Positions 12,903 to 34,476 of a DNA stretch of 64,000 bases are shown one piece after another (position 1 is the first letter of the stretch; every line of letters starts with the position of its first letter). This DNA comes from an uncultured Acidobacteriota bacterium. Lineage in GTDB: Bacteria > Acidobacteriota > UBA6911. The translations under genes and the position numbers were made by a program. The stretch spans positions 181,313 to 245,312 of the forward strand of contig CAWJKZ010000024.1 in assembly GCA_963843575.1 (NCBI GenBank). Direction: 5' to 3'. The notes under the pieces are model-generated. The model was given only the letters and a program-made list of their open reading frames with translations, made no database searches and was not told the DNA's origin.

Positions 12903-12920
12903 CAAACTAAGGAAGATCAC

Positions 12921-15576: not shown

Positions 15577-15653
15577 TGGAGTGCGGCGGCTCGACGCCGA
15601 CGCGGATCTCGGTCTCGAAATGCGGCGTCGAGCCGTCGAGCCGCCGCACTCCA
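15577..15653. repeat. REP-like palindromic element immediately 3' of gspD
   Basis: TGGAGTGCGGCGGCTCGACGCCG ... CGGCGTCGAGCCGTCGAGCCGCCGCACTCCA: inverted arms of about 20 bp with a ~25-nt loop. Starts 3 nt after the gspD stop. Confidence 0.7.
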
Positions 15654-15715
15654 CATTCTGCGCTGCAAAAAACCGCTCTCCGTGTTTGGATCTTCGTATT
15701 ACACTCGCGGGCATC

Positions 15716-22377: not shown

Positions 22378-23241
22378 ATGCACCGGTTGACGGATCCATT
22401 CTGGGCATTCTGGGGCAGGATCCTGCTCAAGCCCGTGGCGTTGGTCGTGCTGAGCGCCTCGATGCTTTTCGAGGGCTATCACCTCCTCGCCCCGTCCGGG
22501 GACAGCCTCGGCGGCATCCGCCGCGATCTCGCCGAACAGGTCTGCGGCAAGGCCGTCGACGAGCTGCCGAAGATGAACGGCGTCCCGTCCCTCGCGGTTC
22601 TCAACCTCGCCGGCGACGACCAGGGGCTCGTCACCGAAATCCTGCGCGCGCGGCTCGAAGCTTCCGGCGAGTTCCGCCTGATGGAGCCCGGCTTTTTCAG
22701 GAAGCTCCTGCGCGAATTCGGCAAGGAGGAAGCGCCCGTCTCGCGTCTCGCCGACGCGGTCGACATGGCCCGCAAGCTCGGGGTCGACCTGGTCCTCTTC
22801 GGCGAACTCCCGGAATTCAAGGCCTCGGCCGACCGTGCCGCGATCCGGCTCGAGCTGCGGATGGCCGAGCGCGCGACAGGCCAGGCTTTGTTCGCGCGCA
22901 GCTACTCGGAGAGCGTGGGCAGCGGCCCGGGTCGTTTCAGCTGGCGCGCGCGCATGGCGGGGAGCGCCAAGGGGCGCAGGATATTCATCTGGGTCGCGTT
23001 CACCCTGCTGCTCCCACTCCTGACCGTCCCCTTGATCCGCCGCATCATCTCGGTCGAATCGAATCTCGTCAACCTCGTCCTGCTCGTGGCCTACACGGCC
23101 GTCGACCTGGCGCTCGCGTTCTTCCTGACGGGCTTCTGGATTCCCGGGATCTGGACCGCGGTCGTGCTGCTGCTCGCGCTCGCGGCGAGCGCTCTCTACA
23201 ACTACGTGATTGCTTCGTTTATCGAAGAGATGAGTCACTGA
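22378..23241 (+). CDS. Hypothetical membrane protein, first gene of the ESCRT-like cluster
   Basis: Intact 287-aa ORF. N-terminal TM segment and a soluble middle region. The C-terminal third is strongly hydrophobic (IFIWVAFTLLLPLLTVPLI...IPGIWTAVVLLLALAASALY). Confidence 0.5.
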   Translation: MHRLTDPFWAFWGRILLKPVALVVLSASMLFEGYHLLAPSGDSLGGIRRDLAEQVCGKAVDELPKMNGVPSLAVLNLAGDDQGLVTEILRARLEASGEFRLMEPGFFRKLLREFGKEEAPVSRLADAVDMARKLGVDLVLFGELPEFKASADRAAIRLELRMAERATGQALFARSYSESVGSGPGRFSWRARMAGSAKGRRIFIWVAFTLLLPLLTVPLIRRIISVESNLVNLVLLVAYTAVDLALAFFLTGFWIPGIWTAVVLLLALAASALYNYVIASFIEEMSH

Positions 23242-23251
23242 GGTAACCGAT

Positions 23252-23848
23252 ATGGCTCTGTTCAAATCCAAAGAAGAGCGGCGCATCGAAAGGAACATCC
23301 AGATCCGCAAGGCCGTGACCCAGATCCGCCGCCAGATCGCCTCCAACGGCAAACACGAGAGCGATTACATCGCCAAGGCGAAGAGAGCCCGGAAAATGGG
23401 CTGGGACAACCAGTACGAGTTCCTCAAGAAGGCGATCAAGAAGACCGCCACGATCAAGGTCCGGCTCGAGCGGCAGCTGCTGGCGCTGGAATCCGCCGTG
23501 CAGATCAAGGAGCAGGCCGAAGGGCACCACGAGTTCGCGAGCGCGATGAACGCGCTGTCGAAGTCGATCGCCGAGGTGTTCGGCGCCACCGACATGGCCA
23601 AGACCCAGGTCAATTTCGAGAAGGCGATGTCGCAGGCCGAGAGCCTGGAAGAGCGGATGGACACGTTCCTCGAGATGACGTCCGAGTCGATGTTCGACTA
23701 CGAGGGGAGTTCCGAGCGCGAGCTCGTCAGCGACGGCGACATCGACAAGATGCTCGAGGAGGAAGTGCAGCACGAGGAACGCGAAGGGATAGACGAAGAA
23801 ATCGACAAGGACATTTCGGCCATCCAGAAGGAAATCGAGAAAAAATAA
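23252..23848 (+). CDS. ESCRT-III (Snf7/CHMP)-like protein 1
   Basis: Intact 198 aa and all alpha-helical. Basic N-terminal helices (KAKRARKMGWDNQYEFLKKAIKKTATIKVRLERQLLALESAVQ) are followed by an acidic C-terminal tail ending DEEIDKDISAIQKEIEKK, which is MIM1-like. Length and charge polarity match Snf7-family proteins. Followed by MIT-AAA gene. Confidence 0.65.
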   Translation: MALFKSKEERRIERNIQIRKAVTQIRRQIASNGKHESDYIAKAKRARKMGWDNQYEFLKKAIKKTATIKVRLERQLLALESAVQIKEQAEGHHEFASAMNALSKSIAEVFGATDMAKTQVNFEKAMSQAESLEERMDTFLEMTSESMFDYEGSSERELVSDGDIDKMLEEEVQHEEREGIDEEIDKDISAIQKEIEKK

Positions 23849-23850
23849 TG

Positions 23851-23887
23851 TGGAGTGCGCGCCTCGGCGCCTCGACGCCGCACTCCA
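23851..23887. repeat. Short REP-like hairpin (TGGAGTGCGCGCC...GACGCCGCACTCCA) between ESCRT-III-1 and Vps4-like-1
   Basis: Shares the arm motif GGAGTGCG / CGCACTCC with the other copies and sits in the 43-nt intergenic gap. Confidence 0.6.
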
Positions 23888-23891
23888 GAAG

Positions 23892-24998
23892 ATGAATACG
23901 ATGCAGTTCTTCCTTGATCAGTACGAGAAGAACAAGGACCAGGGGCTCGACTATCTCAAGGTCGGGGACTACGAGCAGGCAGGTTACCACCTGCTCCTCG
24001 CGGCGAAGTACCTGCTGACCGCGGCGCAGCGGTCGGAGCCGGGGCTCAAGAAAGTGAGACACGCGAAGGCGTTGAAGCTGCGCGAGCTCGCGCTCTCGGC
24101 GAAGGGTCGGACTCCCCCCAGGAAGGCTGCGGGGGCCAGGGACCAGGACGGCGATCTGACGCCCGAGAGCAAGTGGATTGTCTCCGAGAAGCCGAACGTC
24201 CGGTTCGACCAGGTCGCCGGCCTCGCGGACGTCAAGGAAGCGATCAACCTGCGCGTCATCCTGCCGTTTCGCAATCCCGACGCCGCGAAGCGCTTCAGGA
24301 AGAAGGCGGGGGGCGGCATCCTCCTGTACGGACCGCCGGGCACCGGCAAGACGATGATCGGCAAAGCGGTCGCGACCGAGCTCGACGCGCAGTTCCTCAA
24401 CGTCAAGAGCTCGAACATCATGTCGCCGTGGGTCGGGGTGGCCGAGCAGAACCTCGCGCGGCTGTTCGAGGTGGCGCGCCGGTATCCCATCTCGGTGATT
24501 TTCCTGGATGAGACCGAGGCCCTGGTCGGGAAGCGCGGCAGCCAGTCGACCGTGATGAACCGCGTAGTCCCGGAGTTCCTCTCGCAGGTCGACGGACTCG
24601 ACCCGAAGGTGAACTGCATCCTGCTGATGGGGGCCACGAACCGGCCGTGGGACATGGACGAGGCGGCCCTGCGCACCGGGCGCTTCGGCGAGATGATCTA
24701 CGTGGGTCTCCCCGATGCCGCGGCCCGCGAACAGATACTCCATTTCCACCTGGACGGCATCCCGATGGCGTCCGACATCGACCTCCCTGCCCTGGCGGCG
24801 AGGCTGGACGGCTTCAGCGGAGCGGACATCGCGGGTGTCTGCATCAAAGCGACCGATTTCCCCTTTCAGCGGCAGATCCGCTCGGGGGCCGACACGATTC
24901 TGACCAAGGAGGACCTGGACCGGGCCGCTGCGGAAGTCGTCCCGTCGGTGACCCAGGCCATGCTGGAGCGCTATCGCAAGTTCGCGGAGGCGAGGTAA
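23892..24998 (+). CDS. Vps4-like AAA+ ATPase 1: N-terminal MIT domain plus a meiotic-clade AAA domain plus a Vps4_C-like helix
   Basis: Intact. MIT-like three-helix N-terminus (MQFFLDQYEKNKDQGLDYLKVGDYEQAGYHLLLAAKYLLTAAQ...KVRHAKALKLRELA). SEKPNVRFDQVAGLADVKEAINLRVILPF...GGGILLYGPPGTGKTMIGKAVATE closely parallels eukaryotic Vps4 (PNVKWSDVAGL...ILP...[22 protein letters not shown]). Pore loop SPWVGVAEQ, Walker B VIFLDE, and C-terminal SVTQAMLERYRKFAE. Confidence 0.8.
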   Translation: MNTMQFFLDQYEKNKDQGLDYLKVGDYEQAGYHLLLAAKYLLTAAQRSEPGLKKVRHAKALKLRELALSAKGRTPPRKAAGARDQDGDLTPESKWIVSEKPNVRFDQVAGLADVKEAINLRVILPFRNPDAAKRFRKKAGGGILLYGPPGTGKTMIGKAVATELDAQFLNVKSSNIMSPWVGVAEQNLARLFEVARRYPISVIFLDETEALVGKRGSQSTVMNRVVPEFLSQVDGLDPKVNCILLMGATNRPWDMDEAALRTGRFGEMIYVGLPDAAAREQILHFHLDGIPMASDIDLPALAARLDGFSGADIAGVCIKATDFPFQRQIRSGADTILTKEDLDRAAAEVVPSVTQAMLERYRKFAEAR

Positions 24999-25022
24999 CG
25001 CCGCCCGCTTTGGAGTCGACCG

Positions 25023-25718
25023 ATGAGTGACCCCGTAAGCCACAGCCTCCCTGCCGCGCCGCGCTGGGGCGAACTCTTCCTCGAGCGGTTCGACCTGAAC
25101 GTGCGCGCCTGCGGCGCCGTCGTGCACCCGGCCGACGGGACCGTGCTCAAGGTCAATCCGAAGATGCTGGGGCAAACTTTCCGCCGGGACTTCGGCGAAG
25201 TGGTGCTCTTCTCGCTCTCCGCCGGCCTCATCGCCAGATCCCGCCTGCACCTGGCCGCCATCCGGCTGAACGACGGCGTCCCCGAGCCGGAACTCCTGCG
25301 CCGCGTGGGCGGTCCCGACGGACTCGATTTCGTGGGCGATCATTTTTACTCCGTCGGGTTGTTCGCGCCCGGCGGCTGGCCCGAAGAGTGGAAGGCACAG
25401 GCGGCGCTGCGCGGCAACGCGCTGTTCTACCTGGTCGAGAAGGGGGACGGAACCGGCTGGGGCGTGTTCGGCCCGGAAAACCCTCTCCTGCGGCTGTTCG
25501 ACCCCGAGACGACCATCGAGAAGGCGGCCCGGGCGGCGCAGGCCCTCGCGGGGCACCCACGGCTCGTGATGCCGGGGGACCAGGTCGAAGCCGGCGCGTT
25601 CGCCGCGGAACTGCGCCTGGACGCGGAGGCCCTGGAGAAAGCGCTGGCAGCTTCGCAGGGGCGCTTCCACAAGATGGAGTACAAGGGCAAGACCTACATA
25701 CAGCGGTCAATCCGGTAG
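25023..25718 (+). CDS. Hypothetical protein (231 aa) embedded in the ESCRT-like cluster
   Basis: Intact ORF with an RBS-like sequence upstream. No recognisable domain. Confidence 0.4.
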   Translation: MSDPVSHSLPAAPRWGELFLERFDLNVRACGAVVHPADGTVLKVNPKMLGQTFRRDFGEVVLFSLSAGLIARSRLHLAAIRLNDGVPEPELLRRVGGPDGLDFVGDHFYSVGLFAPGGWPEEWKAQAALRGNALFYLVEKGDGTGWGVFGPENPLLRLFDPETTIEKAARAAQALAGHPRLVMPGDQVEAGAFAAELRLDAEALEKALAASQGRFHKMEYKGKTYIQRSIR

Positions 25719-25726
25719 GAGGAATC

Positions 25727-26338
25727 ATGTCCGTGATGGAGAAACTCAGAGCGCTGTTCCAGAGCGAGAGTCTGCCGGACGAGACGCGCCAGCTTTACAG
25801 CAGGGCGTCCACGCCGCACGAACTCATCAAGGAGCTGGAGGGGTTGCGGGGCCGCAACGAGGTCGACCTGCGCGAGAACGAGCAGGAGCTGATCGGGCTC
25901 GAGAAGGCGGTCCTGCTGGAGGAGGACGCCGTGCGCCGGGGAGGGATGACCCCGACCGAAGAGACGATCGTGCTGCGCCGGATCGAACGGCTGCAAAAGC
26001 AGCGGGAGAACCTCGACCGGCAGGTCTCGATCTACAACGAAAACGTCAACCTGCACCTCAACCTCATCGCCAGAATCCAGGAGATGGAGGCGATGCGCTC
26101 CCGCGGGGTCGCCGAGGACCAGATCGACCGGCTCGTCGAGGATGTCGAGGGGCACGTCGAAGAGTACAAACGGGTGAGCATTGCGGCCGAAGGGGGCTCG
26201 ACCATGGGTTCGGCCATCGACCACTCGGCCGAGCGCCGCCGCCTGGACGAGATCAAGAACCGCATCCTGGCCAGGGACAGGGAACGTCCACGCGCCGCGG
26301 ACGAGGAACCCGTCGAACCCCCCAAAGACCTGGAGTGA
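25727..26338 (+). CDS. ESCRT-III (Snf7/CHMP)-like protein 2
   Basis: RBS TAGGAGG precedes the ATG at 25727. 203 aa, helical. Core ENEQELIGLEKAVLLEEDAVRRGGMTPTEETIVLRRIERLQKQRENLDRQVSIYNENVNLHLNLIARIQEME. The C-terminal RLDEIKNRILARD resembles the Vps2-type MIM1 (D/E-L-x-x-R-L-x-x-L-R-R-D). Confidence 0.65.
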   Translation: MSVMEKLRALFQSESLPDETRQLYSRASTPHELIKELEGLRGRNEVDLRENEQELIGLEKAVLLEEDAVRRGGMTPTEETIVLRRIERLQKQRENLDRQVSIYNENVNLHLNLIARIQEMEAMRSRGVAEDQIDRLVEDVEGHVEEYKRVSIAAEGGSTMGSAIDHSAERRRLDEIKNRILARDRERPRAADEEPVEPPKDLE

Positions 26339-26374
26339 TCCCAGCTATCACGATTCATCAAAGGAGATCGAATC

Positions 26375-26995
26375 ATGAACCTGATCGAAAAGCTGTTCAG
26401 CAAATCGCCCACCGCGGCGGACCTCCGGGTCCAGCTCAAGGAGATCGAAAGGGACCAGAAGAAGAAGCGGCGCGACCTCGACATCGTCGAGCGCAACAAG
26501 CAGCAGAAGGTCAAGGAAGCCGTCGCCGCAAAGAAGAATGGCAAACAGGAGGTGCTCCGGGACATCTTCCGGGAGATGCGGCAGATGGAGATCGAGAACG
26601 GCTATGCAAACGCCGACCTGCGCCGCCTGTCGCTGGCCAAGACCGCGCTGACGTCCTTCCTGCGCAAGATGGAGATGCTCGAGCGGAAGAAGGACCGGAA
26701 GAGCCTGCAGAACCTGATCGTGCGGTTCAAAGACAGCTCGATCCAGAAGGCGATCGACACGGCGGAAGTCGACGACGACACCTTCAACGACATGCTGGAA
26801 GAGATCCTCGGCGAAGAGGAGTTGTCGGTCACGCAGGGGAGGGTGAAAGAAGATACCGGGTTTGCCGACTTCGACCGGGCGATCGGCGAGATGGCGAAGG
26901 CCGAGGAGGCCGGTTCGGACGAAGAGGATCTCAACAAGTTCCAGGAAGAGATCGACAAGGCCGTCCGGGCGGAAAAAGTGCGGGACGAGGCGTAG
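26375..26995 (+). CDS. ESCRT-III (Snf7/CHMP2-like) protein 3
   Basis: 206 aa. N-terminal half LRVQLKEIERDQKKKRRDLDIVERNKQQKVKEAVAAKKNGKQEVLRDIFREMRQME parallels the CHMP2 helix-1/2 pattern (...AAKKGQKD...). Acidic C-terminus DDDTFNDMLEEILGEEEL...EEDLNKFQEEIDKAVRAEK. Confidence 0.7.
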   Translation: MNLIEKLFSKSPTAADLRVQLKEIERDQKKKRRDLDIVERNKQQKVKEAVAAKKNGKQEVLRDIFREMRQMEIENGYANADLRRLSLAKTALTSFLRKMEMLERKKDRKSLQNLIVRFKDSSIQKAIDTAEVDDDTFNDMLEEILGEEELSVTQGRVKEDTGFADFDRAIGEMAKAEEAGSDEEDLNKFQEEIDKAVRAEKVRDEA

Positions 26996-27019
26996 CAGGG
27001 GTTCTGGAGGCCTGATCAC

Positions 27020-28240
27020 ATGGACGTCGACCTGAGCGGGCCGCTGAAAGTGTCGCTGGACAAGACACTGGCCGAGGCGCGGGAGCTCGAAGGGCAGAAC
27101 AAGGGCCAGGAGGCGGCCGTCGCCTACCTGAAGGCGTCGAAGCTGATGAAGAGCTACGCCGACTACGCGCTCACCCGCGACGACCAGGTGCGGAGGCGCC
27201 AGAAGGCGCGGCAGTACCTGGAGTGGGCCGAGGCGCTCAAGGCCGGCAAGCGGCGGGTGGCCGCAGCCGCCGCGCCCGTGCGGGCTGCACCGGTTGCCGG
27301 CGGCGTCAAGGAGGCCGCCGCCGGGGACGAGGAACAGTACTCGCGCGACATCGCGTCGCTGATCCACCGCAGCAAGGTGACGTGGGACAAGATCGGCGGG
27401 CTCGAGGAGACCAAGCGTGAGATCAAGTTCACGTACGGGCTCGCGCTGGCCCGGAAACCGGAAGGGATGAAGCTCGCGGGGTGGCGCCGCATGCTCTTCT
27501 ACGGGCCGCCCGGGACCGGCAAGACGTTGCTGGCGGCGGCTACCAGCAACGGGCTGGGCGCGACCTTCTTCAACGTCAAGGCGAGCAACCTCCTGTCGAA
27601 GTACTTCGGCGAGTCCTCGAAGCTGATCACGGAGCTGTTCGACGCCGCCCGGAGCGAGGCCGACGAAGGCTTCGCCGTCATTTTCATCGACGAGGTCGAG
27701 TCGCTCTGCCTGCCGCGCGGCGACGGCTCGGAGAGCGGCGCCGAGAGGCGCGTCCTGTCGACGATCCTGTCGGAGCTCGACGGGCTGGCGGACAAGGGTG
27801 AGGACCGGTTCGTCCTGACCATCGCGGCGACCAACGCGCCGTGGGACCTCGACGACGCGGTGCTCAGCCGCTTTCAGAAGAGAATTTACATCCCGCTGCC
27901 CGACGCCGAAGCGCGCAAGTCGATACTCGAGATCCTGCTGCTCAAGGCGGGCCACACGCTGGACTACCCGCTCGGGGAGGTCATCGAGCACTCGGAGTGG
28001 TTCAGCGGGCGCGACCTGGAACGGCTGGCGAACCAGGCGGTCAACGTCATGGTCGAGGAACTCAACAGCCAGATTCCGCGCTGCGTCGACGCCGGGCGGG
28101 AGTCGATCGAGGGCTACCAGCTCAAGGTGCGCCCGCTCGGCAAGAGCGATTTCGACGAGGCGTTCCGGCGCATACGGGTGGACGTGGACCGGCTGAAAAA
28201 GCTGGAGACGCGCTTTCGCGAGTTCGCAGAGAGCAATTGA
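27020..28240 (+). CDS. Vps4-like AAA+ ATPase 2 (MIT-like N-terminus plus meiotic-clade AAA)
   Basis: Intact 406 aa. MIT-like helices (AVAYLKASKLMKSYADYALTRDDQVRRRQKARQYLEWAEALK). Walker A FYGPPGTGKTLLAAA, pore loop LSKYFGESSKL, Walker B VIFIDEVESL, and a C-terminal helix LKKLETRFREFAE of Vps4_C type. Confidence 0.75.
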   Translation: MDVDLSGPLKVSLDKTLAEARELEGQNKGQEAAVAYLKASKLMKSYADYALTRDDQVRRRQKARQYLEWAEALKAGKRRVAAAAAPVRAAPVAGGVKEAAAGDEEQYSRDIASLIHRSKVTWDKIGGLEETKREIKFTYGLALARKPEGMKLAGWRRMLFYGPPGTGKTLLAAATSNGLGATFFNVKASNLLSKYFGESSKLITELFDAARSEADEGFAVIFIDEVESLCLPRGDGSESGAERRVLSTILSELDGLADKGEDRFVLTIAATNAPWDLDDAVLSRFQKRIYIPLPDAEARKSILEILLLKAGHTLDYPLGEVIEHSEWFSGRDLERLANQAVNVMVEELNSQIPRCVDAGRESIEGYQLKVRPLGKSDFDEAFRRIRVDVDRLKKLETRFREFAESN

Positions 28241-28258
28241 GGACTTCCGGGGAATCCG

Positions 28259-29230
28259 ATGGCGGTTTGCGGTCAGTGTAAACAGGACGGCGGGGAAAAG
28301 AAGTTCTGCACCAACTGCGGCGCGCCCATGGTTGAGCCGGCCGCGCCCGCTCAGAAAGCGCAGGCGTCCGGGGTGCGGCTTGGGGACATCGGGTTCGTGA
28401 AGGGGAACATCACCGACTCGAGCACGGTCACGACGACCACCACCAACGTCGGGCAGATCAACATCGGGATGCCTGCCGGCACGTCCCCCGCGGCCCCGTG
28501 TTGCCCCATCTGCGGCGAGTACCCGGAGCTGCGCGAGAGCTTCCGCTGCATGGCGTGCGGGCGCGACTACATCTGCAAGAGGCACCGCCACCCCGAGCAA
28601 AGGATCTGCACCGCGTGCGTCCGCCGGCGCGAGATGGTGTGGGTGCCGCCGGGCGGATCGTTCGACGGGTTCTGGATGGACCGTGCGAAGGTGACCTGCG
28701 AGGCCTACCGGCGATTCCTGGTGGCCAATCCCGGCTGGCAGAAAGGGAGCGTCGATGGGAAGCGCCACGACGGCTACTATCTCAGGGATTGGAACGGGAA
28801 CGACTACCCGGCCGGGAAGGGCGGCCAGCCGGTGGTCTACGTCAGCTGGTACGCGGCCCGCGCCTGCGCGGAGTGGTCCGGGAAGCGGCTCCCGACCGAG
28901 GCCGAGTGGGAGTACGGCTGCCGCGCGGGAACGAACACGGCCTACTGGTGGGGGGACGAGTTCGCCCTGGGGCGGGCCGCCGAAGCCAACCCTTGGGGAC
29001 TGCGCGGCATGTCGGGGTGCCTGTGGGAGTGGACGTCATCGCCCTTCAGCGACGACCCCGCGGATGCGGGGCCGCGCAGCTGCCGCGGCGGCTCGAAATG
29101 GGGGGATGCGGCCGAAGCCCGCTCCTCCGCGCGCAGCGGCCGCGCCCCGAGAGGCTGCAGCGTGATGGTCGGTTTCCGGTGCGTCGAGAGCGGAGACTGT
29201 CCAACGACGAAGCCACTCGACCAGATGTGA
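28259..29230 (+). CDS. Zinc-ribbon protein with a C-terminal FGE-sulfatase (SUMF1/EgtB/PvdO-type) domain
   Basis: N-terminal CGQC...CTNCGAP ribbon plus a second Cys cluster. The C-terminus carries FGE-sulfatase hallmarks (VYVSWYAARACAEWSGKRLPTEAEWEYGCRAG...RGGSKW). Confidence 0.65.
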   Translation: MAVCGQCKQDGGEKKFCTNCGAPMVEPAAPAQKAQASGVRLGDIGFVKGNITDSSTVTTTTTNVGQINIGMPAGTSPAAPCCPICGEYPELRESFRCMACGRDYICKRHRHPEQRICTACVRRREMVWVPPGGSFDGFWMDRAKVTCEAYRRFLVANPGWQKGSVDGKRHDGYYLRDWNGNDYPAGKGGQPVVYVSWYAARACAEWSGKRLPTEAEWEYGCRAGTNTAYWWGDEFALGRAAEANPWGLRGMSGCLWEWTSSPFSDDPADAGPRSCRGGSKWGDAAEARSSARSGRAPRGCSVMVGFRCVESGDCPTTKPLDQM

Positions 29231-29233
29231 TTC

Positions 29234-29327
29234 AAGTGGGTCTGGGCTTCAGCCCGGACGTCTTTTGATCTGAGCTATACAGCTAAGCATGCGCTGTATA
29301 GCGACCGACGAACCAGCGTCCCACTTG
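29234..29327. mobile_element. MITE-like element copy: 27-bp arm AAGTGGGTCTGGGCTTCAGCCCGGACG, an internal palindrome GCTATACAGC...GCTGTATAGC, and a degenerate right arm
   Basis: Same arm as the copies at 46132, 53298, 55168 and 58699. Starts 3 nt after the stop of the FGE-domain gene. Confidence 0.65.
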
Positions 29328-29360: not shown

Positions 29361-30869
29361 ATGATGATGGATGCCGCGGACCAATTGAAGGAGCTGCTTC
29401 TCAAACTCAAGCAGAACCTCCCGCTCACGATCGCGACCACGATCGTAATGAGCATCCTCGTCATATCATGGAAAAAACTCCTTCATTTTGCGAAACGCAG
29501 ACTCGGTTTCGAAGAGCCTCCCAAGGAAGTCCTGAAACCCTCGCTCCCTGAAGGCGATTTTGCCCGTCTGTCGACGCTCGACAAGTTCCGTTCCGGCTTC
29601 TCGGTGCCCTTCGGCTGGCGCGGCGCCGTCGTCGACGCCGGCGTGGTTCAGCGTGAGCTCGGCCCCGGCCGCTACCGCCGGCGCGCCGTCGCGAAGATAA
29701 TCGCCTCCCTGCGGCTCGGCGAAAACGCGCACGTCGTCTTCTGGCGGGACCAGGAGTTCCCCGTAGTGCTCTATCTCCGTGATCTCTTCGCCTCCGACCA
29801 CCAGCCCATGCAGCTCGAGATCCGGAGCACGGCCCGGGTGCGGCCCGATCGTCTGACGCACTCCTCCCCGGAGGAGATCAACCGCGACCCGGCCTGCTGG
29901 GCGGAGGATCTCTCGGCCGGCATCGCGGTTGCCGCCCGCCAGTGGGTGGCCGGTATGGCGGCAGAGGCGCCGTATCACAACGCGGCCAAGCTCTCCGAGT
30001 GGTGCGACGTGGCTGCCGGCTGGATCCGGTCCGCCCTCGAGCGCTCGACTTTCGAACTGGTGCGAGTTACCGGGTTCCGGTTGTTCAGCCCGGTGCTCGA
30101 CAAGGTCTTCGCCGAATACGGCGAGGCGGCGCTGGAGCACGAGGCCGCGCGCCGCGAGGTGGAGCGCAACAAGGTGCGCGGGGCGCTGCGCCAGGCCGTG
30201 CTCGCCGGCCAACTGGAGGAGGTCCGGGACCAGAGCGAGCACGAACAGGCGGTGCGCGCCATCGAGCAGGAAAAAGAGCTCCGCGAGAAAGCCCTGCGGC
30301 AGGAACTGGCGCAGGCCGAACTCACGGAACTGGAAGACAAACTGAGACTCTGGAAGAAGAAGCAGGACCTGTTGCTCCAGACGCTCGACCTGTCGGGGCA
30401 GGACTCCGCCCGGCAGTTTGATGCCCCCGACTCGCCGTTCTCCGCCCACGAGCGCGAACAGATCCGGGCAGTGCTGCAGAGTCAAAGGGCGATGTCGACG
30501 CAACCCGAGGAAGTGCTCCCGCTGCTCGCCCGCAGCACAGAGATCCAGTGGGCCGCGTTCGACCCGCTTGCCCGGATCCGCGGCCCGCACACGCTGCGCG
30601 TCGGCGAGGGGTGGCGGTTCTTCGACGGGGTGAGCCTGTGGAGAATCGTGCTGACCCGCATCGACACGCGTCGTAACGGGTTCTTGTGGCAGCGGGAGAC
30701 GCCGTCGCGCGCGTATTTCGAAGTGCGCGGCACGCCCGACGGCCGGCGCTACGAGCAGGTTGTCGAACTGAACAAACACTTCCGGCTGAGCGCCGGCCCC
30801 CACGAGATGAGTGTCGACTTCATCGGCGGCAGCGCGAGCCGGATTTCACTCCAGGTAGGCCAGGCCTGA
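29361..30869 (+). CDS. Membrane-anchored SPFH/band-7-like protein with a long coiled coil
   Basis: Intact 502 aa. TM helix LPLTIATTIVMSILVIS is followed by an SPFH-like segment (AVVDAGVVQRELGPGRYRR...HVVFWRDQEFPVVLYLRDLFASDHQPMQLEIRSTARV) and a coiled coil of about 120 aa. Confidence 0.45.
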   Translation: MMMDAADQLKELLLKLKQNLPLTIATTIVMSILVISWKKLLHFAKRRLGFEEPPKEVLKPSLPEGDFARLSTLDKFRSGFSVPFGWRGAVVDAGVVQRELGPGRYRRRAVAKIIASLRLGENAHVVFWRDQEFPVVLYLRDLFASDHQPMQLEIRSTARVRPDRLTHSSPEEINRDPACWAEDLSAGIAVAARQWVAGMAAEAPYHNAAKLSEWCDVAAGWIRSALERSTFELVRVTGFRLFSPVLDKVFAEYGEAALEHEAARREVERNKVRGALRQAVLAGQLEEVRDQSEHEQAVRAIEQEKELREKALRQELAQAELTELEDKLRLWKKKQDLLLQTLDLSGQDSARQFDAPDSPFSAHEREQIRAVLQSQRAMSTQPEEVLPLLARSTEIQWAAFDPLARIRGPHTLRVGEGWRFFDGVSLWRIVLTRIDTRRNGFLWQRETPSRAYFEVRGTPDGRRYEQVVELNKHFRLSAGPHEMSVDFIGGSASRISLQVGQA

Positions 30870-30970
30870 CGGATTTTTGAAAATTCGAGATTCTTCGAGT
30901 CTTGGAGCCTTCGAGGTGGGATTGGAATCCCCCTCGACGACCATTTCACCAGACGCATCGGAGGCACGCC

Positions 30971-33031
30971 ATGTTCCAGGTCGAATGCCCTAAATGTCAG
31001 GAGAAAAGCAAGTCCGGTTCGCGTTATTGCGGCAACTGCGGCGAACGCCTGCCGGGGTCGGAGATCAAGTGCGGCAACTGCGGTGCCGTCGTCGCGGGCG
31101 ACAGGAAGTTCTGCGGGAACTGCGGCAAGCCCCTGGCCGAGAGCGAATCCCCGCTGCTGACCGGCAACCGCTGGGCGCGGCGCACCGACGATTTCGCGAC
31201 CAAGGTCGAGATCGACGACGTCGAAGGCTTCTTCAAGAAAGGGTTGATCGTCGAGGCGGGCACCAGGGCCATCTTCTTCGTCAACGGCGCGTACTCCGGC
31301 ATCCTCGATCCCGGCAAATACGACATGGGCGGACTGCTTCAGCGCATCAAGAACGTCTTCAGCTCGAAGACGACCACCGCGGTCCTCGTCGATGCGGGAG
31401 ACGCCGAACTCCAGTTCTCGCTCACCGACCTTCCGACGAAAGATCCTATCCGCCTTGCCGCCGAGTGCAGGATCGTCGTCCAGATGGACAACCCCACCCA
31501 GTTTTTCGAAAACATGATGAAGGGCCGGCAGAACTATCCGCTCTCGCAGCTGAAGGGCTTCCTCGAGGAGGAACTGCGCAACTGCCTGCTCGAGTTCGTC
31601 GGCGCCAGGTCCGTCCAGGAACTGTCGACCAACCTCGCATTCAAGCAGCAGATGGAGCAGGGGATCGCGCAGCACCTCGCCAGGACGTTCGACCGGAAGG
31701 GGCTGTCGTTCATCCAGGCGCGCGTCTTCAACTTCCGGCACCCGCGCATGAACGCGCTGACCAGCAAGATGGAGGAGTACTGGTTGAACGCCGAGGATCT
31801 CAAGGCCCGGCTGGCCGGACAGGACTCCACGGTGGGGCTGGAGCGGCGTCTGCTCGACCAGGAGACCGCCAAGGCGATCATGCAGCTCGAAGTCTACGAA
31901 GACCGGGCGCGGGTGCGCGACCGGATGCGCAAGGCGGTCGCGAGCGATCAGATGAACGAGATCACCAGCGCGGCCGAGATGGAGAAATTCCTCCAGGGGA
32001 TGGACAAGGAAAAGCTCCTGCGCGCCGACGAGATGCGTGACCTCGCCCAGACCTTCGCCGAGAAGGGCGAAGATCACGACGTCGCCCGCCGTCACGTGAT
32101 CCAACGGCTGAGGGTCGAGCAGGAGATGGACCTCGCCCGGGCGGCGCTCGTGGGCAAGATCGGACTGCAGCGCACGGCCACCGATTCCATCAGGGCCGAG
32201 GAGATGGCCCAGCTCGAGCACGAGCTCGTGGCGCAGCGCAAGGAAGTCGAACAGCGGCAGGCGCAGGAATGGGCGCTCGTCAAACAGCAGGTGGAGGCGC
32301 GGCGCCTGCAGACCGAGATGGACCTCGACCTGGACAGGCAGAGGAAGCTCTCCGATATCGAACTCGAGGAGAAAGGGGACCAGGCGGACGTGCGCAGCGC
32401 CCTGGATGCCTTGAGAATCGTCAAAGAGCAGAAGGCCATGCGGAAGGAAGAAGCCGACGCCGACCTGGAGCGCCGGTTGAAAGAGGAGGCGGTGCGGCAC
32501 CAGCAGGAGCTCGAGAGGGTCGACAAGCTCTCGACGCTTTCCACCGAGGCGCTGATCGCGCTCGGGCCCGCGGACCGGGCGCCTATTCTCGCAGAACTGC
32601 AGCGGTCGGAAAAGCTGAAGGGTTATTCGGCGGACCAGATCCTGGCGATGGCGGCCGAGAAAAACCCGGAGGTGGCGAAGGCATTCCAGGAGAAGTACCG
32701 GAACGCTTCGGCCGCAGACGTCGAGAAGGCCTACGAGCGGATGCTGGGGATGAAGGAGAGGAGCGAAACCGACTTCCACGCGTTCGCGGACAAGGCCATG
32801 CAGAGGATGCAGGAGATGTACAACCGCGGCATGGACACGCAGCGCGACACGAGCATGGCGGCGGCCCGGTCGGGCCAGCCCGAGACGACCGTGATCACGC
32901 CCGGCTCCGGAGTCCTCCAGAGCAGCGGCGGGCAGCCCGTCCGCGAGGTGCGGGTGATGGTCTGCCCCGAGTGTCACCAGAAGGTCGCCGAAGGGAACAA
33001 GTTCTGCGACAACTGCGGTCACAAGTTCTGA
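30971..33031 (+). CDS. Zinc-ribbon protein with a flotillin-like SPFH domain, an extended coiled coil, and a C-terminal zinc ribbon
   Basis: N-terminal CPKC...CGNCG, CGNCG and CGNCGKP ribbons. SPFH-like core (GTRAIFFVNGAYSGILDPGKYDMGG...LAAECRIVVQMDNPTQFFENMM). A coiled coil of about 330 aa rich in E/R/K/Q follows, then a C-terminal CPECHQK...CDNCGHKF ribbon. Intact. Confidence 0.6.
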   Translation: MFQVECPKCQEKSKSGSRYCGNCGERLPGSEIKCGNCGAVVAGDRKFCGNCGKPLAESESPLLTGNRWARRTDDFATKVEIDDVEGFFKKGLIVEAGTRAIFFVNGAYSGILDPGKYDMGGLLQRIKNVFSSKTTTAVLVDAGDAELQFSLTDLPTKDPIRLAAECRIVVQMDNPTQFFENMMKGRQNYPLSQLKGFLEEELRNCLLEFVGARSVQELSTNLAFKQQMEQGIAQHLARTFDRKGLSFIQARVFNFRHPRMNALTSKMEEYWLNAEDLKARLAGQDSTVGLERRLLDQETAKAIMQLEVYEDRARVRDRMRKAVASDQMNEITSAAEMEKFLQGMDKEKLLRADEMRDLAQTFAEKGEDHDVARRHVIQRLRVEQEMDLARAALVGKIGLQRTATDSIRAEEMAQLEHELVAQRKEVEQRQAQEWALVKQQVEARRLQTEMDLDLDRQRKLSDIELEEKGDQADVRSALDALRIVKEQKAMRKEEADADLERRLKEEAVRHQQELERVDKLSTLSTEALIALGPADRAPILAELQRSEKLKGYSADQILAMAAEKNPEVAKAFQEKYRNASAADVEKAYERMLGMKERSETDFHAFADKAMQRMQEMYNRGMDTQRDTSMAAARSGQPETTVITPGSGVLQSSGGQPVREVRVMVCPECHQKVAEGNKFCDNCGHKF

Positions 33032-33038
33032 GCGGAAA

Positions 33039-33063
33039 GCGGCGCCGAGGCGCCGCACTCCAT
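33039..33063. repeat. Half-copy of the REP-like element (GCGGCGCCGAGGCGCCGCACTCCA) 3' of the flotillin-like gene
   Basis: Carries the CGCCGCACTCC arm preceded by the GGCGCC-GA-GGCGCC palindrome. Confidence 0.5.
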
Positions 33064-33074
33064 AGGGGGCAGCC

Positions 33075-34439: not shown

Positions 34440-34476
34440 GCAAGTACCGCAGGCTTTTCGATTGAGGTGAGCTGTC

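What the first reader, a model, noticed from the sequence alone, without database searches (positions are those of the whole stretch)
23252..28240. Bacterial ESCRT-III / Vps4-like module: three Snf7/CHMP-like paralogs plus two MIT-AAA ATPases in one operon
Five genes on one strand are separated by tight spacers of 1-43 nt, interrupted only by one hypothetical gene. Three encode helical proteins of about 200 aa with a basic N-terminal helical hairpin and an acidic C-terminal tail, which is the Snf7/CHMP architecture. Protein 3 even mirrors the CHMP2 AAKKGQKD region as AAKKNGKQE. Two encode meiotic-clade AAA ATPases whose N-termini form MIT-like three-helix bundles. Their AAA cores match eukaryotic Vps4 almost residue-for-residue in diagnostic stretches (PNV..VAGL, ILP, GILLYGPPGTGKT, AKAVATE). 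They also share the aromatic pore loop (PWVG / KYFG) and a Vps4_C-like terminal helix (LERYRKFAE / LETRFREFAE). The flanking T2SS secretin, sigma-70 factors, cus efflux and LPS-type glycosylation genes make the host clearly bacterial. Bacterial ESCRT-III relatives described so far are mainly PspA/Vipp1, which lack a dedicated MIT-AAA partner. A full Snf7 plus Vps4 machine with paralog multiplicity like the eukaryotic/Asgard system is therefore unusual. It is a candidate uncharacterised membrane-remodelling system, for example for vesicle budding, membrane repair or division.
Basis: partly seen in the sequence, partly recalled or inferred. Interest (0 to 1): 0.93.

Follow-up and report, generated by a model that had tools for sequence, protein, structure and literature searches.

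The report
Bacterial Snf7 plus Vps4-like operon
A bacterium (probably an Acidobacteriota member) carries a conserved operon that pairs a genuine Snf7-family (ESCRT-III) protein and two similarly built helical proteins with two Vps4-style MIT-AAA ATPases, a membrane-remodelling toolkit that recent reviews say is confined to archaea and eukaryotes.

Summary
The core reading holds, but some details do not.

- **E3-1 (23252-23848)** belongs to a family that matches Pfam Snf7. Its profile hits only CHMP3, Snf7 and CHMP2A among solved structures, never PspA/Vipp1.
- **E3-2 and E3-3** have the predicted ESCRT-III helix layout (a0, a long hairpin, then a4 and a5). They show no significant sequence or fold match to ESCRT-III, so "three Snf7 paralogs" is unproven.
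- **Both ATPases** carry homologous N-terminal MIT-type domains. The AAA2 domain profile hits the VPS4A/B MIT domain.
  - AAA2 has a Vps4/katanin-type second region of homology.
  - AAA1 has a classical CDC48-D2-type one.
- **The module is conserved** in about 127 species genomes, all MAGs among the 80 listed (Acidobacteriota, many Planctomycetota, one Sumerlaeota).
- **Recurrent partners** are a core protein with a weakly winged-helix-like C-terminus, a 4-TM protein, a Zn-ribbon-SPFH protein, and Ser/Thr kinases. This mirrors the accessory sets of archaeal ESCRT systems.

The most likely function is ATP-driven turnover of membrane-bound ESCRT-III-type polymers. It is a new bacterial variant of a known kind, and it is highly interesting.

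The parts
22378..23241 (+). TM287: integral membrane protein with 4 predicted TM segments and a loop domain of about 165 aa. Candidate membrane anchor or recruiter.
   Evidence: ORF. Hydropathy gives TM segments at 13-31, 199-217, 233-251 and 255-273. Pfam gives only a weak CsgG-like hit (E 0.096). Homologues are present in 40 of 80 species loci. The gene ends 10 nt upstream of E3-1.
23252..23848 (+). E3-1: Snf7/CHMP-family ESCRT-III protein (198 aa). It has a conserved N-terminal 'M(G/A)LFKSKEERR' motif, a basic N-terminal half, an acidic C-terminal half and a conserved amphipathic C-terminal helix (D..I...L.EI..EL).
   Evidence: The window copy alone hits Pfam Snf7 at only E 0.71. At family level, 21 of 27 members hit Snf7, best E 1.8e-8. 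The family profile against PDB gives CHMP3 (1e-3), Snf7 (2e-3) and CHMP2A (2e-2), and no PspA or Vipp1. hhalign against a CHMP3 fragment gives E 0.0015 over 120 columns at 31% identity. Charge is and motifs.
23901..24998 (+). AAA1: N-terminal MIT-like three-helix domain (about residues 1-70), a linker, then a single classical AAA cassette. Pore loop 1 is PWVG here and KWVG in the family. The SRH is 'LRTGRFGEMIYVGLPD'.
   Evidence: Pfam AAA 3.4e-34, AAA_lid_3 1e-9, Vps4_C weak at E 0.012. NCBIfam gives CDC48 208 bits against CdvC 204 bits. In orthologues the CdvC alignment spans the whole protein including the N-domain. The N-domain profile's top PDB hit is the MIT domain of chitin synthase 2mpk (E 0.04). 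hhalign to the AAA2 N-domain gives 94.6%, E 6.6e-8. In 45 of 64 informative loci the gene lies within 3.5 kb downstream of E3-1.
25023..25718 (+). hyp231: conserved system-specific protein of unknown fold. Its C-terminal 50 aa or so resemble a winged helix. In close relatives it is fused to a subtilisin (S8) domain.
   Evidence: No Pfam or NCBIfam hit. An HMM finds the domain in 60 of 80 species loci, always upstream of the E3 genes. Weak PDB profile hits are the ZAP winged-helix domain (E 0.07) and the DasR wHTH (E 0.2). Peptidase_S8 fusions occur in L001 and L015/L017/L040.
25727..26338 (+). E3-2: 203-aa helical protein with an ESCRT-III-like helix layout, overall acidic, with a Pro-rich disordered tail that ends in a conserved '..LE' C-terminus.
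26375..26995 (+). E3-3: 206-aa helical protein with an ESCRT-III-like layout. It has an invariant N-terminal Phe8, a basic N-terminal half, a very acidic C-terminal half, and an 'AAKKNGKQE' motif at the position of CHMP3 'AAKKGQKD'.
   Evidence: AF2 model: pLDDT 75, pTM 0.58, helices at 14-54 and 58-104 plus five shorter ones. Foldseek top 50 contains 8 CdvB2, 4 Vipp1 and 1 CHMP1B hits with TM up to 0.45, none significant. hhalign to the E3-1 family gives E 0.006-0.007. Against CHMP3 only the 10-residue motif aligns (E 0.24). The family is small: 65 clusters among 1.84e9 representatives.
27020..28240 (+). AAA2: MIT domain (about residues 8-80), a long linker, then a single AAA cassette. Pore loop 1 is KYFG. 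The SRH is Vps4/katanin-type, 'LSRFQKRIYIPLPD'.
   Evidence: The top 8 PDB hits of the N-domain profile are the VPS4A/B MIT domain (E 4.9e-5 to 7e-3). Pfam MIT is weak in 3 of 16 members. NCBIfam gives CdvC 179 > PAN 155 > CDC48 154 bits. Katanin-like 1 scores 171.8 bits in one domain, against 151.6 for the listed CDC48 (6chs) D2 domain. The C-terminal part matches fidgetin-like 1, spastin, MSP1 and katanin.
28259..29230 (+). Zn-ribbon plus FGE-sulfatase (SUMF1-like) domain protein. Probably the last gene of the first transcription unit.
   Evidence: Pfam FGE-sulfatase 4.9e-31. Homologues occur in 7 loci and in L005. A terminator-like hairpin lies at 29240-29259, although such sites are not enriched above chance.
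29361..30869 (+). p502: single-pass membrane protein of unknown family, conserved in the Acidobacteriota versions of the locus.
   Evidence: No family hit. TM segment at 19-37. Homologues lie at the same position in L011, L014 and L017.
30902..33031 (+). Double Zn-ribbon, then SPFH/Band-7, then a long coiled coil, then a C-terminal Zn-ribbon. Candidate membrane-microdomain scaffold.
   Evidence: Pfam Band_7 3e-14, DZR 9e-14, Zn_Ribbon_1 7e-13. Homologues occur in 15 loci. The same architecture is described in archaeal Meth_adaptin ESCRT loci, and Band-7+ZnR in the B. subtilis PspA operon (PMC10936438; supplement of PMC11237479).
33075..34439 (+). Protein with an N-terminal Cys-rich, Zn-ribbon-like motif (read from the sequence) and otherwise unknown function (454 aa). 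Same strand, 43 nt after the SPFH gene.
   Evidence: ORF. No Pfam hit.
34477..36132 (+). Receptor-type Ser/Thr protein kinase with an N-terminal Cys-rich, Zn-ribbon-like motif (read from the sequence) and one TM segment. Probable regulator.
   Evidence: Pfam Pkinase 1.4e-53. TM at 384-402. Zn-ribbon kinases, FHA and PP2C proteins recur in related loci.

Best explanation
This is a bacterial ESCRT-III/Vps4-type membrane-remodelling system built from two sub-modules.

**Proposed mechanism**
- Sub-module 1 is E3-1 (a true Snf7-family protein) with AAA1.
- Sub-module 2 is hyp231 with E3-2, E3-3 and AAA2.
- The roughly 200-aa helical proteins are proposed to bind the cytoplasmic face of the inner membrane through their conserved N-terminal hydrophobic 'LF' motifs and, for E3-1 and E3-3, their basic hairpins. 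There they polymerise.
- The hexameric MIT-AAA ATPases are proposed to recognise the acidic C-terminal tails through their MIT domains. The tails are an amphipathic MIM1-like helix in E3-1 and a Pro-rich tail in E3-2.
- The ATPases would then thread subunits through the aromatic pore loops (KWVG and KYFG). This would drive polymer turnover and so membrane repair, constriction or vesicle scission.
- TM287, hyp231 and the Zn-ribbon-SPFH protein would site and nucleate the polymer. The Ser/Thr kinase would regulate it.

**Shown**
- E3-1 is homologous to Snf7/CHMP.
- The N-domains of the ATPases are MIT-type.
- The ATPase motifs are intact.
- The gene linkage is conserved across phyla.
- Several partners are membrane proteins.

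**Inferred**
- E3-2 and E3-3 are ESCRT-III-like.
- MIM-MIT recognition occurs.
- The proteins polymerise on membrane.
- The physiological role.
For: - **E3-1 is Snf7 family.** 21 of 27 members hit Pfam Snf7, best E 1.8e-8, and none hit PspA_IM30. The family profile finds only CHMP3, Snf7 and CHMP2A in the PDB below E 0.1. hhalign to CHMP3 gives E 0.0015 over 120 columns.
- **The N-domains are MIT-type.** The AAA2 N-domain profile hits the VPS4A/B MIT domain at E 5e-5. The AAA1 N-domain is homologous to it.
- **Similarity to CdvC.** CdvC is the best NCBIfam model for AAA2. In AAA1 orthologues the CdvC model aligns end to end.
- **The catalytic machinery is conserved.** Walker A and B, sensor 1, the Arg finger and the pore loops are 90-100% conserved in 60 AAA1-type and 33 AAA2-type sequences.
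- **E3-2 and E3-3 look like ESCRT-III.** The AF2 models show a0, a 40-50-residue hairpin, a4 and a5. ESCRT-III superfamily chains (CdvB2, CdvB, Vipp1, CHMP1B) recur among the top Foldseek hits.
- **Synteny.** E3-1 is followed by AAA1 in 45 of 64 informative loci. The order hyp231, E3-2, E3-3, AAA2 recurs. Some Planctomycetota place all three E3 genes in front of a single AAA1 (L023, L029, L034, L042, L044).
- **Accessory genes match archaeal ESCRT loci.** The shared set includes SPFH with coiled coil and Zn ribbon, Ser/Thr kinases with FHA and PP2C, and PQQ/Kelch propellers. [quoted passage not shown]
- **Membrane association.** TM287, p502 and the kinase all have predicted TM segments.
Against: - The window's own E3-1 scores below threshold on Pfam Snf7 (E 0.71). 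Membership rests on the family, not on this copy alone.
- E3-2 and E3-3 have no significant sequence link to any ESCRT-III.
- E3-2 lacks the basic N-terminal half.
- AAA1 is as close to CDC48 D2 as to CdvC, or closer, and has a classical SRH.
- Planctomycete AAA2 orthologues score PAN, CDC48 and CdvC about equally.
- No member reaches the CdvC equivalog cut-off.
- Pfam MIT and Vps4_C hits are all below their gathering scores.
- All loci listed by the genome scan and the other loci with named sources come from MAGs or metagenome contigs, and no experiment exists.
- 14 of 64 loci have E3-1 with no AAA gene within 10 kb.
Confidence: 0.7

Rival explanations
1. This is a CDC48-like protein unfoldase or quality-control system. 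The AAA ATPases would be single-ring relatives of CDC48 D2 whose TPR/MIT-like N-domains bind coiled-coil adaptor or substrate proteins. The system would act on soluble or membrane protein substrates, for extraction or degradation, and would not remodel membranes.
For: - AAA1 and its orthologues score highest on CDC48 (208-249 bits) in NCBIfam.
- The AAA1 SRH and C-terminal helix align best to p97/CDC48 D2.
- S8 proteases and caspase-like peptidases occur in related loci.
- The N-domain profiles also touch TPR designs weakly.
Against: - The gene next door is a real Snf7-family protein.
- Apart from one tektin chain (E 0.41), that family's profile hits only ESCRT-III chains in the PDB below E 0.8.
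- The AAA2 N-domain matches specifically the VPS4 MIT domain.
- AAA2 has the Vps4/katanin-type SRH.
- Vps4 is itself thought to derive from Cdc48 (PMC10936438), so similarity to CDC48 does not exclude a Vps4-like role.
Confidence: 0.12
2. This is an anti-phage or conflict system of the AAA-plus-protease type (Ietis-like, IetA/IetS). The helical proteins and kinases would be sensors or effectors that damage the membrane on infection.
For: - PADLOC IetA models hit both ATPases (E 1e-31 to 1e-33), as does NCBIfam IteA.
- hyp231 is fused to an S8 protease in close relatives, and a caspase-like gene lies nearby in L001.
- Kinase, FHA and PP2C modules are common in conflict systems.
Against: - The IetA/IteA scores (100-120 bits, against a cut-off of 510) are much lower than those for CDC48 or CdvC. 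They cover only the generic AAA core.
- No other protein of the cluster hits any PADLOC model.
- No relatives were found on viral contigs.
- Loci such as L007 and L061 sit among housekeeping genes. No test for mobile-element hallmarks was made.
Confidence: 0.08
3. The helical proteins belong to the bacterial PspA/Vipp1 (IM30) branch of the superfamily, and this is simply a variant phage-shock-type envelope stress operon.
For: - PspA operons are known to include Zn-ribbon and Band-7/SPFH partners (B. subtilis PspA->ZnR->...->Band-7+ZnR, supplement of PMC11237479).
- Vipp1 chains appear among the weak fold hits for E3-2 and E3-3.
Against: - PspA_IM30 is hit by none of the 56 family members scanned.
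- The E3-1 profile hits CHMP3, Snf7 and CHMP2A but no PspA or Vipp1 chain at E <= 10.
- PspA systems are not known to have MIT-AAA partners (PMC7619361).
Confidence: 0.04
4. The locus is an assembly or binning artefact: archaeal or eukaryotic DNA mis-joined to a bacterial contig.
For: All of the 80 loci listed by the genome scan come from metagenome-assembled genomes, and the other loci with named sources are also MAGs or metagenome contigs.
Against: - GC content is uniform across the window at 62-71%.
- Bacterial genes (ECF sigma, T2SS, PilMN, AcrB) lie on both sides on one contig.
- The same module appears in at least 80 independent bacterial MAG contigs of up to 1.96 Mb from many studies.
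Confidence: 0.01

Closest known systems
Archaeal ESCRT systems (CdvB/ESCRT-III with CdvC/Vps4, including the 'main', Halo_FHA and Meth_adaptin types of Makarova et al. 2024, PMC10936438)
   Same: [quoted passage not shown]
- Several ESCRT-III-type genes sit in each locus.
- The accessory repertoire overlaps: a possibly winged-helix protein upstream of ESCRT-III (only a weak resemblance here), Ser/Thr kinase with phosphatase and FHA, SPFH with coiled coil and Zn ribbon, and PQQ-type propellers.
   Different: - The host is bacterial (Acidobacteriota, Planctomycetota, Sumerlaeota).
- There are two distinct MIT-AAA paralogues, one with a classical CDC48-like SRH.
- Two of the three helical proteins are too divergent to be recognised as Snf7.
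- System-specific partners (hyp231, TM287, p502) have no recognised archaeal counterpart.
- No protein reaches the CdvC equivalog score.
Eukaryotic ESCRT-III (CHMP2/3/4, Snf7) with Vps4
   Same: - The E3-1 family profile aligns to CHMP3 residues 14-164 and to Snf7 and CHMP2A.
- It has an N-terminal 'MGLF' type motif and the same charge asymmetry.
- It has a C-terminal amphipathic helix where MIM1 sits in the eukaryotic proteins.
- The ATPases have a MIT domain and aromatic pore loops.
   Different: - No ESCRT-0, -I or -II components or ubiquitin link were identified.
- No Vta1/LIP5 and no Vps4 beta-domain were identified.
- Sequence identity is low, and Pfam Snf7, MIT and Vps4_C are mostly sub-threshold.
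Bacterial PspA/Vipp1 (IM30) systems, including B. subtilis PspA-YdjGHI
   Same: [quoted passage not shown]
- They are associated with Zn-ribbon and SPFH/Band-7 proteins.
- They probably have a stress or repair role.
   Different: - E3-1 belongs to the Snf7 branch, not the IM30 branch.
- PspA systems lack a MIT-AAA partner. PspF is an unrelated bEBP AAA+ protein.
Bacterial 'MIT+Vps4-AAA-ATPase -> TPR+6TM' dyads and membrane-anchored divergent Snf7 (SIG+TM+Snf7) next to PspA (Ravi et al. 2024, PMC11237479 and its supplement)
   Same: These are previously noted bacterial occurrences of Vps4-like ATPases (including in Planctomycetes) and of Snf7-like domains.
   Different: - In those loci snf7 is reported as displaced by a TPR+6TM protein.
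- Alternatively, the Snf7 domain is TM-anchored and paired with a two-domain classical AAA.
- Here a soluble Snf7 protein of about 200 aa sits directly next to the MIT-AAA gene, the canonical ESCRT-III/Vps4 pairing.
- Whether AAA1 or AAA2 belong to the same ATPase clade as Oter_1429 was not tested.

Membership tests
ESCRT-III, Snf7/CHMP branch (Pfam PF03357) | Significant match to the Snf7 profile or to solved ESCRT-III sequences: E3-1 | tested here: met
   Met at family level. 21 of 27 members hit Snf7, best E 1.8e-8. The PDB profile hits are CHMP3 1.1e-3, Snf7 1.8e-3 and CHMP2A 2.2e-2, with nothing else below E 0.4. hhalign to CHMP3 gives E 0.0015. The window copy alone reaches only E 0.71.
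ESCRT-III, Snf7/CHMP branch (Pfam PF03357) | Significant match to the Snf7 profile or to solved ESCRT-III sequences: E3-2 and E3-3 | tested here: not met
   There are no Snf7 or PspA hits in 14 and 15 members respectively, nor with their profiles against the PDB. hhalign to the E3-1 family gives E 0.006 for E3-3 and 0.1 for E3-2. hhalign to CHMP3 gives 0.24 and 0.82. Distant E3-3 relatives give no Snf7 hit better than E 0.65.
ESCRT-III superfamily (fold) | a1-a2/a3 helical hairpin followed by a4 and a5, with an N-terminal a0 | tested here: inconclusive
ESCRT-III superfamily | Basic N-terminal half and acidic autoinhibitory C-terminal half | tested here: met
   E3-1 is +10.4/-14.6 and E3-3 is +10.9/-18.1 (family means). 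E3-2 does not meet this, at +0.6/-13.
ESCRT-III superfamily | C-terminal MIT-interacting motif (MIM1 helix or Pro-rich MIM2) that binds the partner's MIT domain | not testable with these tools
   A conserved C-terminal amphipathic helix D..I...L.EI..EL is present in E3-1. E3-2 has a Pro-rich tail with a conserved terminal LE. Resemblance to the MIM1 and MIM2 consensus is judged from memory. No complex prediction was possible.
ESCRT-III superfamily | Polymerisation on membranes and membrane deformation | not testable with these tools
   This needs biochemistry or imaging.
Vps4/CdvC-type ATPase | N-terminal MIT domain | tested here: met
   For AAA2, the top 8 PDB hits of the N-domain profile are VPS4A/B MIT (E 4.9e-5 to 7e-3) across the whole three-helix domain. 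AAA1 is met indirectly: hhalign to the AAA2 N-domain gives 94.6%, E 6.6e-8, and its top PDB hit is a MIT domain (2mpk, E 0.04). Pfam MIT is sub-threshold in both.
Vps4/CdvC-type ATPase | Single classical AAA cassette with intact Walker A and B, sensor 1, Arg finger and aromatic pore loop 1 | tested here: met
   Pfam AAA at 1e-34 to 1e-36. The motifs are 90-100% conserved in both families.
Vps4/katanin/spastin ('meiotic') clade | Clade-typical SRH (..RF.KRIYIPLP) and closest single-domain similarity to clade members | tested here: inconclusive
   AAA2 has 'LSRFQKRIYIPLPD'. Katanin-like 1 scores 171.8 bits against 151.6 for the listed CDC48 (6chs) D2 domain. CdvC is its top NCBIfam model. Its C-terminal part matches FIGNL1, spastin, MSP1 and katanin. 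However, planctomycete AAA2 orthologues score PAN, CDC48 and CdvC about equally. AAA1 has 'LRTGRFGEMIYVGLPD', the classical type, and scores CDC48 >= CdvC, so it does not meet the feature. No phylogeny was built. The clade motif itself is recalled from memory.
Vps4/CdvC-type ATPase | Curated family score (NCBIfam CdvC equivalog 650 bits; Pfam Vps4_C 21.3 bits) | tested here: not met
   CdvC scores are 152-232 bits. Vps4_C scores 16 bits in AAA1 and gives no hit in AAA2. The terminal helix also aligns to p97 D2.
Vps4/CdvC-type ATPase | Encoded next to ESCRT-III gene(s) | tested here: met
   In 45 of 64 informative loci, AAA1 lies within 3.5 kb downstream of E3-1. AAA2 follows E3-2 and E3-3.
PspA/Vipp1 (PF04012 PspA_IM30) | Match to the PspA_IM30 profile or to solved PspA/Vipp1 sequences | tested here: not met
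   There is no PspA_IM30 hit in any of the 56 scanned members. There is no PspA or Vipp1 chain in the PDB profile searches at E <= 10.
Ietis (IetA/IetS) anti-phage system | IetA-family ATPase above the curated score, with an adjacent IetS protease | tested here: not met
   IteA scores 103-120 bits against a cut-off of 510. PADLOC IetA hits cover only the AAA core. The window has no S8 protease gene, although relatives fuse S8 to hyp231.

The most novel reading that the evidence does not exclude
Bacteria of at least three phyla possess a complete, regulated ESCRT-like machine. It would comprise an Snf7-type polymer, Vps4-type disassemblases, a recruiter that may be winged-helix-like, and an SPFH scaffold, under kinase control. 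It would be either inherited from before the archaeal-bacterial split or captured from archaea. In FtsZ-less, endomembrane-rich Planctomycetota (including anammox bacteria such as Ca. Kuenenia) it would carry out membrane scission for budding or division, for vesicle formation, or for biogenesis of internal compartments. [quoted passage not shown]
Probability: 0.2. Interest if true: 0.95.

Novelty: new variant of a known kind. Interest (0 to 1): 0.82.

Why it matters
**What current reviews say**
- A Vps4-like ATPase 'appears absent in bacteria' (PMC7619361).
- The one broad survey that noticed bacterial Vps4-like ATPases reported that snf7 is displaced by an unrelated gene in those operons (PMC11237479).

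**What this locus shows**
- This locus family has the canonical pairing, an Snf7-type protein next to a MIT-AAA ATPase.
- It is conserved in more than 100 bacterial species.
- Its accessory domains echo those of archaeal ESCRT loci.

**What it bears on**
1. When and where the ESCRT-III/Vps4 partnership arose, or how far it has spread by gene transfer.
2. How bacteria that have only PspA-type proteins differ mechanistically from ones with an ATP-driven disassemblase.
3. Unexplained membrane biology in Planctomycetota, such as FtsZ-independent division, invaginated membranes and the anammoxosome.

It also offers a compact system that could be reconstituted in bacteria, with two ATPase-substrate pairs.

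Tried and rejected
- **Single-sequence Pfam and NCBIfam on the window proteins.** Almost uninformative for the helical proteins. Family-level scans were needed.
- **hhalign among the E3-1, E3-2 and E3-3 families and against a CHMP3 fragment.** Only E3-1 gave a signal, so I do not call E3-2 or E3-3 Snf7 paralogues.
- **HMMER search of 1.84e9 representatives with the E3-3 profile, then Pfam on its weakest members.** This did not bridge to Snf7.
- **Classifying the ATPases by full-length PDB search.** The ranking is dominated by two-domain CDC48 chains, so I used single-domain scores, C-terminal fragments and motifs instead.
- **'Diagnostic' Vps4 stretches and the Vps4_C helix.** Rejected as diagnostic because they align equally well to CDC48/p97.
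- **PADLOC scan for a defence-system identity.** Only generic AAA hits.
- **Viral-contig scan.** Nothing found.
- **Exact look-up of the window's own E3-1 contig.** This failed. Cluster look-up showed only an unnamed 520-kb NCBI/ENA contig, so the organism is inferred from its nearest relatives (Acidobacteriota, 80-89% identity).
- **PDB profile search for hyp231.** Only weak winged-helix hints.
- **AAA phylogeny.** Not attempted, because no reference Vps4, CdvC, katanin or spastin sequences could be obtained within the session and I did not want to type them from memory.

Full report
**1. What is in the sequence**

Between 22378 and 36132 the + strand carries twelve closely spaced genes. The reported stretch holds these:
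- E3-1 at 23252-23848 (198 aa)
- AAA1 at 23901-24998 (365 aa; this start is the one in the public annotation; ATG 23892 and GTG 23850 are alternatives)
- a 231-aa gene at 25023-25718 (hyp231)
- E3-2 at 25727-26338 (203 aa)
- E3-3 at 26375-26995 (206 aa)
- AAA2 at 27020-28240 (406 aa)

The spacers are 52, 24, 8, 36 and 24 nt.

Upstream, 10 nt away, lies a four-TM protein (TM287, 22378-23241). Downstream follow:
- a Zn-ribbon/FGE-sulfatase protein
- a single-pass membrane protein (p502)
- a double-Zn-ribbon/SPFH/coiled-coil/Zn-ribbon protein
- a 454-aa protein with a Cys-rich N-terminus and no family match
- a receptor-type Ser/Thr kinase with a Cys-rich N-terminus

The Zn-ribbon reading of the last two N-termini is from the sequence only.

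GC content is uniform. The rest of the window is plainly bacterial: an ECF sigma factor, T2SS GspE/GspH, PilM/N and AcrB. The nearest relatives of the proteins are in Acidobacteriota MAGs (80-89% identity).

**2. E3-1 is a real Snf7-family protein**

Alone, the window copy only grazes Pfam Snf7 (E 0.71). Its family tells a clearer story. There are 197 homologues in the large protein database.
- Of 27 diverse members, 21 hit Snf7 (best E 1.8e-8) and none hit PspA_IM30.
- A profile of the family searched against all PDB sequences returns CHMP3, Snf7 and CHMP2A as its eight best hits (E 1e-3 to 2e-2). Nothing else scores below E 0.4, and no PspA or Vipp1 chain appears.
- The alignment to CHMP3 runs from residue 13 to 167, that is a1 to a5. 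hhalign against that CHMP3 fragment gives E 0.0015 over 120 columns at 31% identity.

The family also has:
- a nearly invariant N-terminus M-(G/A)-L-F-K-S-K-E-E
- a basic N-terminal half and an acidic C-terminal half (+10/-15)
- a conserved amphipathic helix at the extreme C-terminus

From memory, these correspond to the ESCRT-III membrane-insertion motif, the autoinhibitory charge pattern and the position of MIM1.

**3. E3-2 and E3-3 look like ESCRT-III but homology is not shown**

Neither family gives any Snf7 or PspA signal:
- member-by-member Pfam scans
- profile searches of the PDB
- profile-profile comparison with the E3-1 family (E 0.006 for E3-3, restricted to the a1 'A.KK.G' motif; E 0.1 for E3-2)
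- comparison with CHMP3

An exhaustive HMMER search with the E3-3 profile found only 65 clusters among 1.84 billion representatives. Their weakest members still do not reach Snf7.

The AlphaFold models are suggestive.
- E3-2 (pLDDT 89, pTM 0.76) has a short N-terminal helix, a 42- plus 50-residue hairpin, two further helices and a disordered Pro-rich tail.
- E3-3 (pLDDT 75) has a 41- plus 47-residue hairpin followed by five shorter helices.

E3-3 shares the charge asymmetry. E3-2 does not. Both share a conserved N-terminal hydrophobic 'LF' motif.

I therefore call them ESCRT-III-like by architecture and context, not Snf7 paralogues.

**4. The ATPases**

Both are single-cassette classical AAA proteins with fully conserved catalytic and pore-loop residues.

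*N-terminal domains*
- The N-terminal 80 residues or so of the AAA2 family, as a profile, hit the MIT domain of VPS4A/B as the eight best PDB matches (E 4.9e-5 to 7e-3). The match spans all three helices.
- The AAA1 N-domain is homologous to it (hhalign 94.6%, E 6.6e-8).
- The best PDB hit of the AAA1 N-domain is the MIT domain of an oomycete chitin synthase (E 0.04).

*AAA cores*

The two families differ here.

| Feature | AAA2 | AAA1 |
|---|---|---|
| SRH motif | D.AVLSRF(E/Q)K(K/R)I.IPLPD, the Vps4/katanin/spastin style as I recall it | D.A.LRPGRFDE..YVGLPD, the classical style |
| NCBIfam | CdvC best (179 bits, against 155 PAN and 154 CDC48) | CDC48 about equal to or above CdvC |
| PDB single-domain | katanin-like 1 at 171.8 bits, against 151.6 for the listed CDC48 (6chs) D2 domain | lid and terminal helix align best to p97/CDC48 D2 |
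| C-terminal third | matches fidgetin-like 1, spastin, MSP1 and katanin | see row above |

In AAA1 orthologues the CdvC model aligns end to end, including the N-domain.

Planctomycete AAA2 orthologues score PAN, CDC48 and CdvC almost equally.

No curated threshold is reached for CdvC, Pfam MIT or Vps4_C.

So the architecture is Vps4/CdvC-like. Clade membership is likely for AAA2, doubtful for AAA1, and untested by phylogeny.

**5. Conservation**

*Distribution*
- A scan of one genome per species (185,579 species) found 127 relatives of E3-1.
- The 80 best are in Acidobacteriota, many Planctomycetota (Planctomycetia, Phycisphaerae, Tepidisphaerales, and Brocadiaceae including Ca. Kuenenia) and one Sumerlaeota. 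All are MAGs.

*Gene linkage*
- In 45 of 64 loci with enough flank, an AAA1-type gene lies within 3.5 kb downstream on the same strand. 50 of 64 have AAA1 or AAA2.
- HMM counts over the 80 loci: hyp231 domain 60, AAA1 58, TM287 40, E3-3 36, AAA2 32, E3-2 29.

*Recurrent gene orders*
- hyp231, E3-2, E3-3, AAA2, E3-1, AAA1, for example in Kuenenia locus L052.
- In several Planctomycetota, hyp231, E3-2, E3-3, E3-1, AAA1 with a single ATPase. This ties the three helical proteins to one another.
- A minimal E3-1 plus AAA1 pair sits among housekeeping genes in L007.

*Frequent neighbours*
- Zn-ribbon Ser/Thr kinases and FHA-PP2C phosphatases
- SPFH-Zn-ribbon proteins and FGE-sulfatase domains
- PQQ or Kelch propellers
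- S8 and caspase-like peptidases

hyp231 is thus a core component. Its last 50 residues or so weakly resemble winged-helix domains.

**6. Comparison with the literature**

- Makarova et al. [quoted passage not shown] They describe archaeal loci with winged-helix proteins upstream of ESCRT-III, Ser/Thr kinases with phosphatases and FHA, SPFH with coiled coil and Zn ribbon, and PQQ-like propellers. This is the same accessory vocabulary seen here.
- A 2025 review says a Vps4-like ATPase appears absent in bacteria.
- Ravi et al. 2024 did note Vps4-like MIT-AAA genes transferred to bacteria, Planctomycetes among them. They report snf7 displaced there by a TPR+6TM protein. Separately they describe TM-anchored divergent Snf7 domains beside PspA and a two-domain AAA.
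- Full-text searches found no paper describing a soluble Snf7 plus MIT-AAA operon in bacteria. The library is incomplete, so prior description elsewhere cannot be excluded.

**7. Interpretation**

The best-supported reading (confidence about 0.7) is an ATP-driven ESCRT-III-type membrane-remodelling system.
- E3 proteins polymerise on the cytoplasmic membrane.
- MIT-AAA hexamers bind their C-terminal tails and extract subunits.
- Membrane and scaffold partners (TM287, hyp231, SPFH) position the assembly, and a kinase regulates it.

The homology of E3-1, the MIT-type domains, the intact motors, the gene linkage and the membrane partners are shown. Polymerisation, MIM-MIT recognition and the physiological role (repair, vesiculation, compartment biogenesis or division) are inferred.

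The rivals are all less consistent with the data:
- a CDC48-like unfoldase system (0.12)
- an Ietis-like defence system (0.08; PADLOC gave only generic AAA hits)
- a PspA-branch stress operon (0.04)
- an assembly artefact (0.01)

**8. Verdict**

It is over-precise about 'three Snf7 paralogs' and 'two meiotic-clade ATPases'. This is a new bacterial variant of a known archaeal and eukaryotic kind of machine. It contradicts current general statements in the field and opens tractable experiments. Interest is 0.82.

Noticed in passing
window 25023-25718; L001 15951-18629; L015 2562-5258; L017 12489-15206; L040 12803-15220: In the closest relatives the hyp231 domain is the C-terminal part of an 800-900-aa protein with a Peptidase_S8 (subtilisin) domain. 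In the window it is a stand-alone 231-aa gene starting 24 nt after AAA1. The protease part has therefore been lost or split off here.
   Followed up: partly
L061 7680-9881; L077 7984-9454; also L053, L054, L057, L064, L070, L074: In Tepidisphaerales and Phycisphaerae loci the Snf7 homologue has no AAA gene within 10 kb. It is still preceded by a hyp231-domain protein of about 490 aa and, at least in L061 and L077, an unassigned gene of about 200 aa. This may be a reduced, ATPase-less form of the system, or the ATPase may be encoded elsewhere.
   Followed up: partly
proteins P0219, P0221, P0222, P0225, P0234, P0235, P0239; P0350-P0362: Many E3-3 homologues are 280-680 aa long, with the E3-3 domain at the N-terminus and a long C-terminal extension. 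One carries Pfam PF24161, and some are annotated by JGI as 'chromosome segregation ATPase' or 'archaellum component FlaC'. The extension was not analysed.
   Followed up: no
L009 748-5454: Four consecutive PQQ_2 beta-propeller genes lie next to a minimal E3/AAA2/E3-1/AAA1 cluster. This recalls the PQQ-like 'adaptin-like' proteins of archaeal Halo_adaptin ESCRT loci.
   Followed up: no
window 4557-13631: A T2SS/type IV pilus-like cluster lies on the + strand upstream. Pfam identified GspE (T2SSE), a GspH-like pseudopilin and a PilM/PilN fusion; further ORFs between them were not scanned. It shows no obvious link to the ESCRT-like operon.
   Followed up: partly
window 15581-16903: A 440-aa protein with a weak FHA domain hit (E 9e-5) lies about 5 kb upstream of the operon. 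FHA proteins are recurrent neighbours of this system elsewhere, so it could belong to the same regulatory circuit.
   Followed up: no
window 36864-38642 (- strand): An AcrB/RND transporter ORF of only 592 aa matches profile positions from about 341 onwards. It may be truncated or frame-shifted relative to a full-length pump of about 1,000 aa.
   Followed up: no
window 29240-29259: A GC-rich hairpin followed by a T-run lies just after the FGE-sulfatase gene and before the 130-nt gap to p502. It suggests that the 12-gene cluster is two transcription units (22378-29230 and 29361-36132). Terminator-like sites are not enriched above chance in this region.
   Followed up: partly
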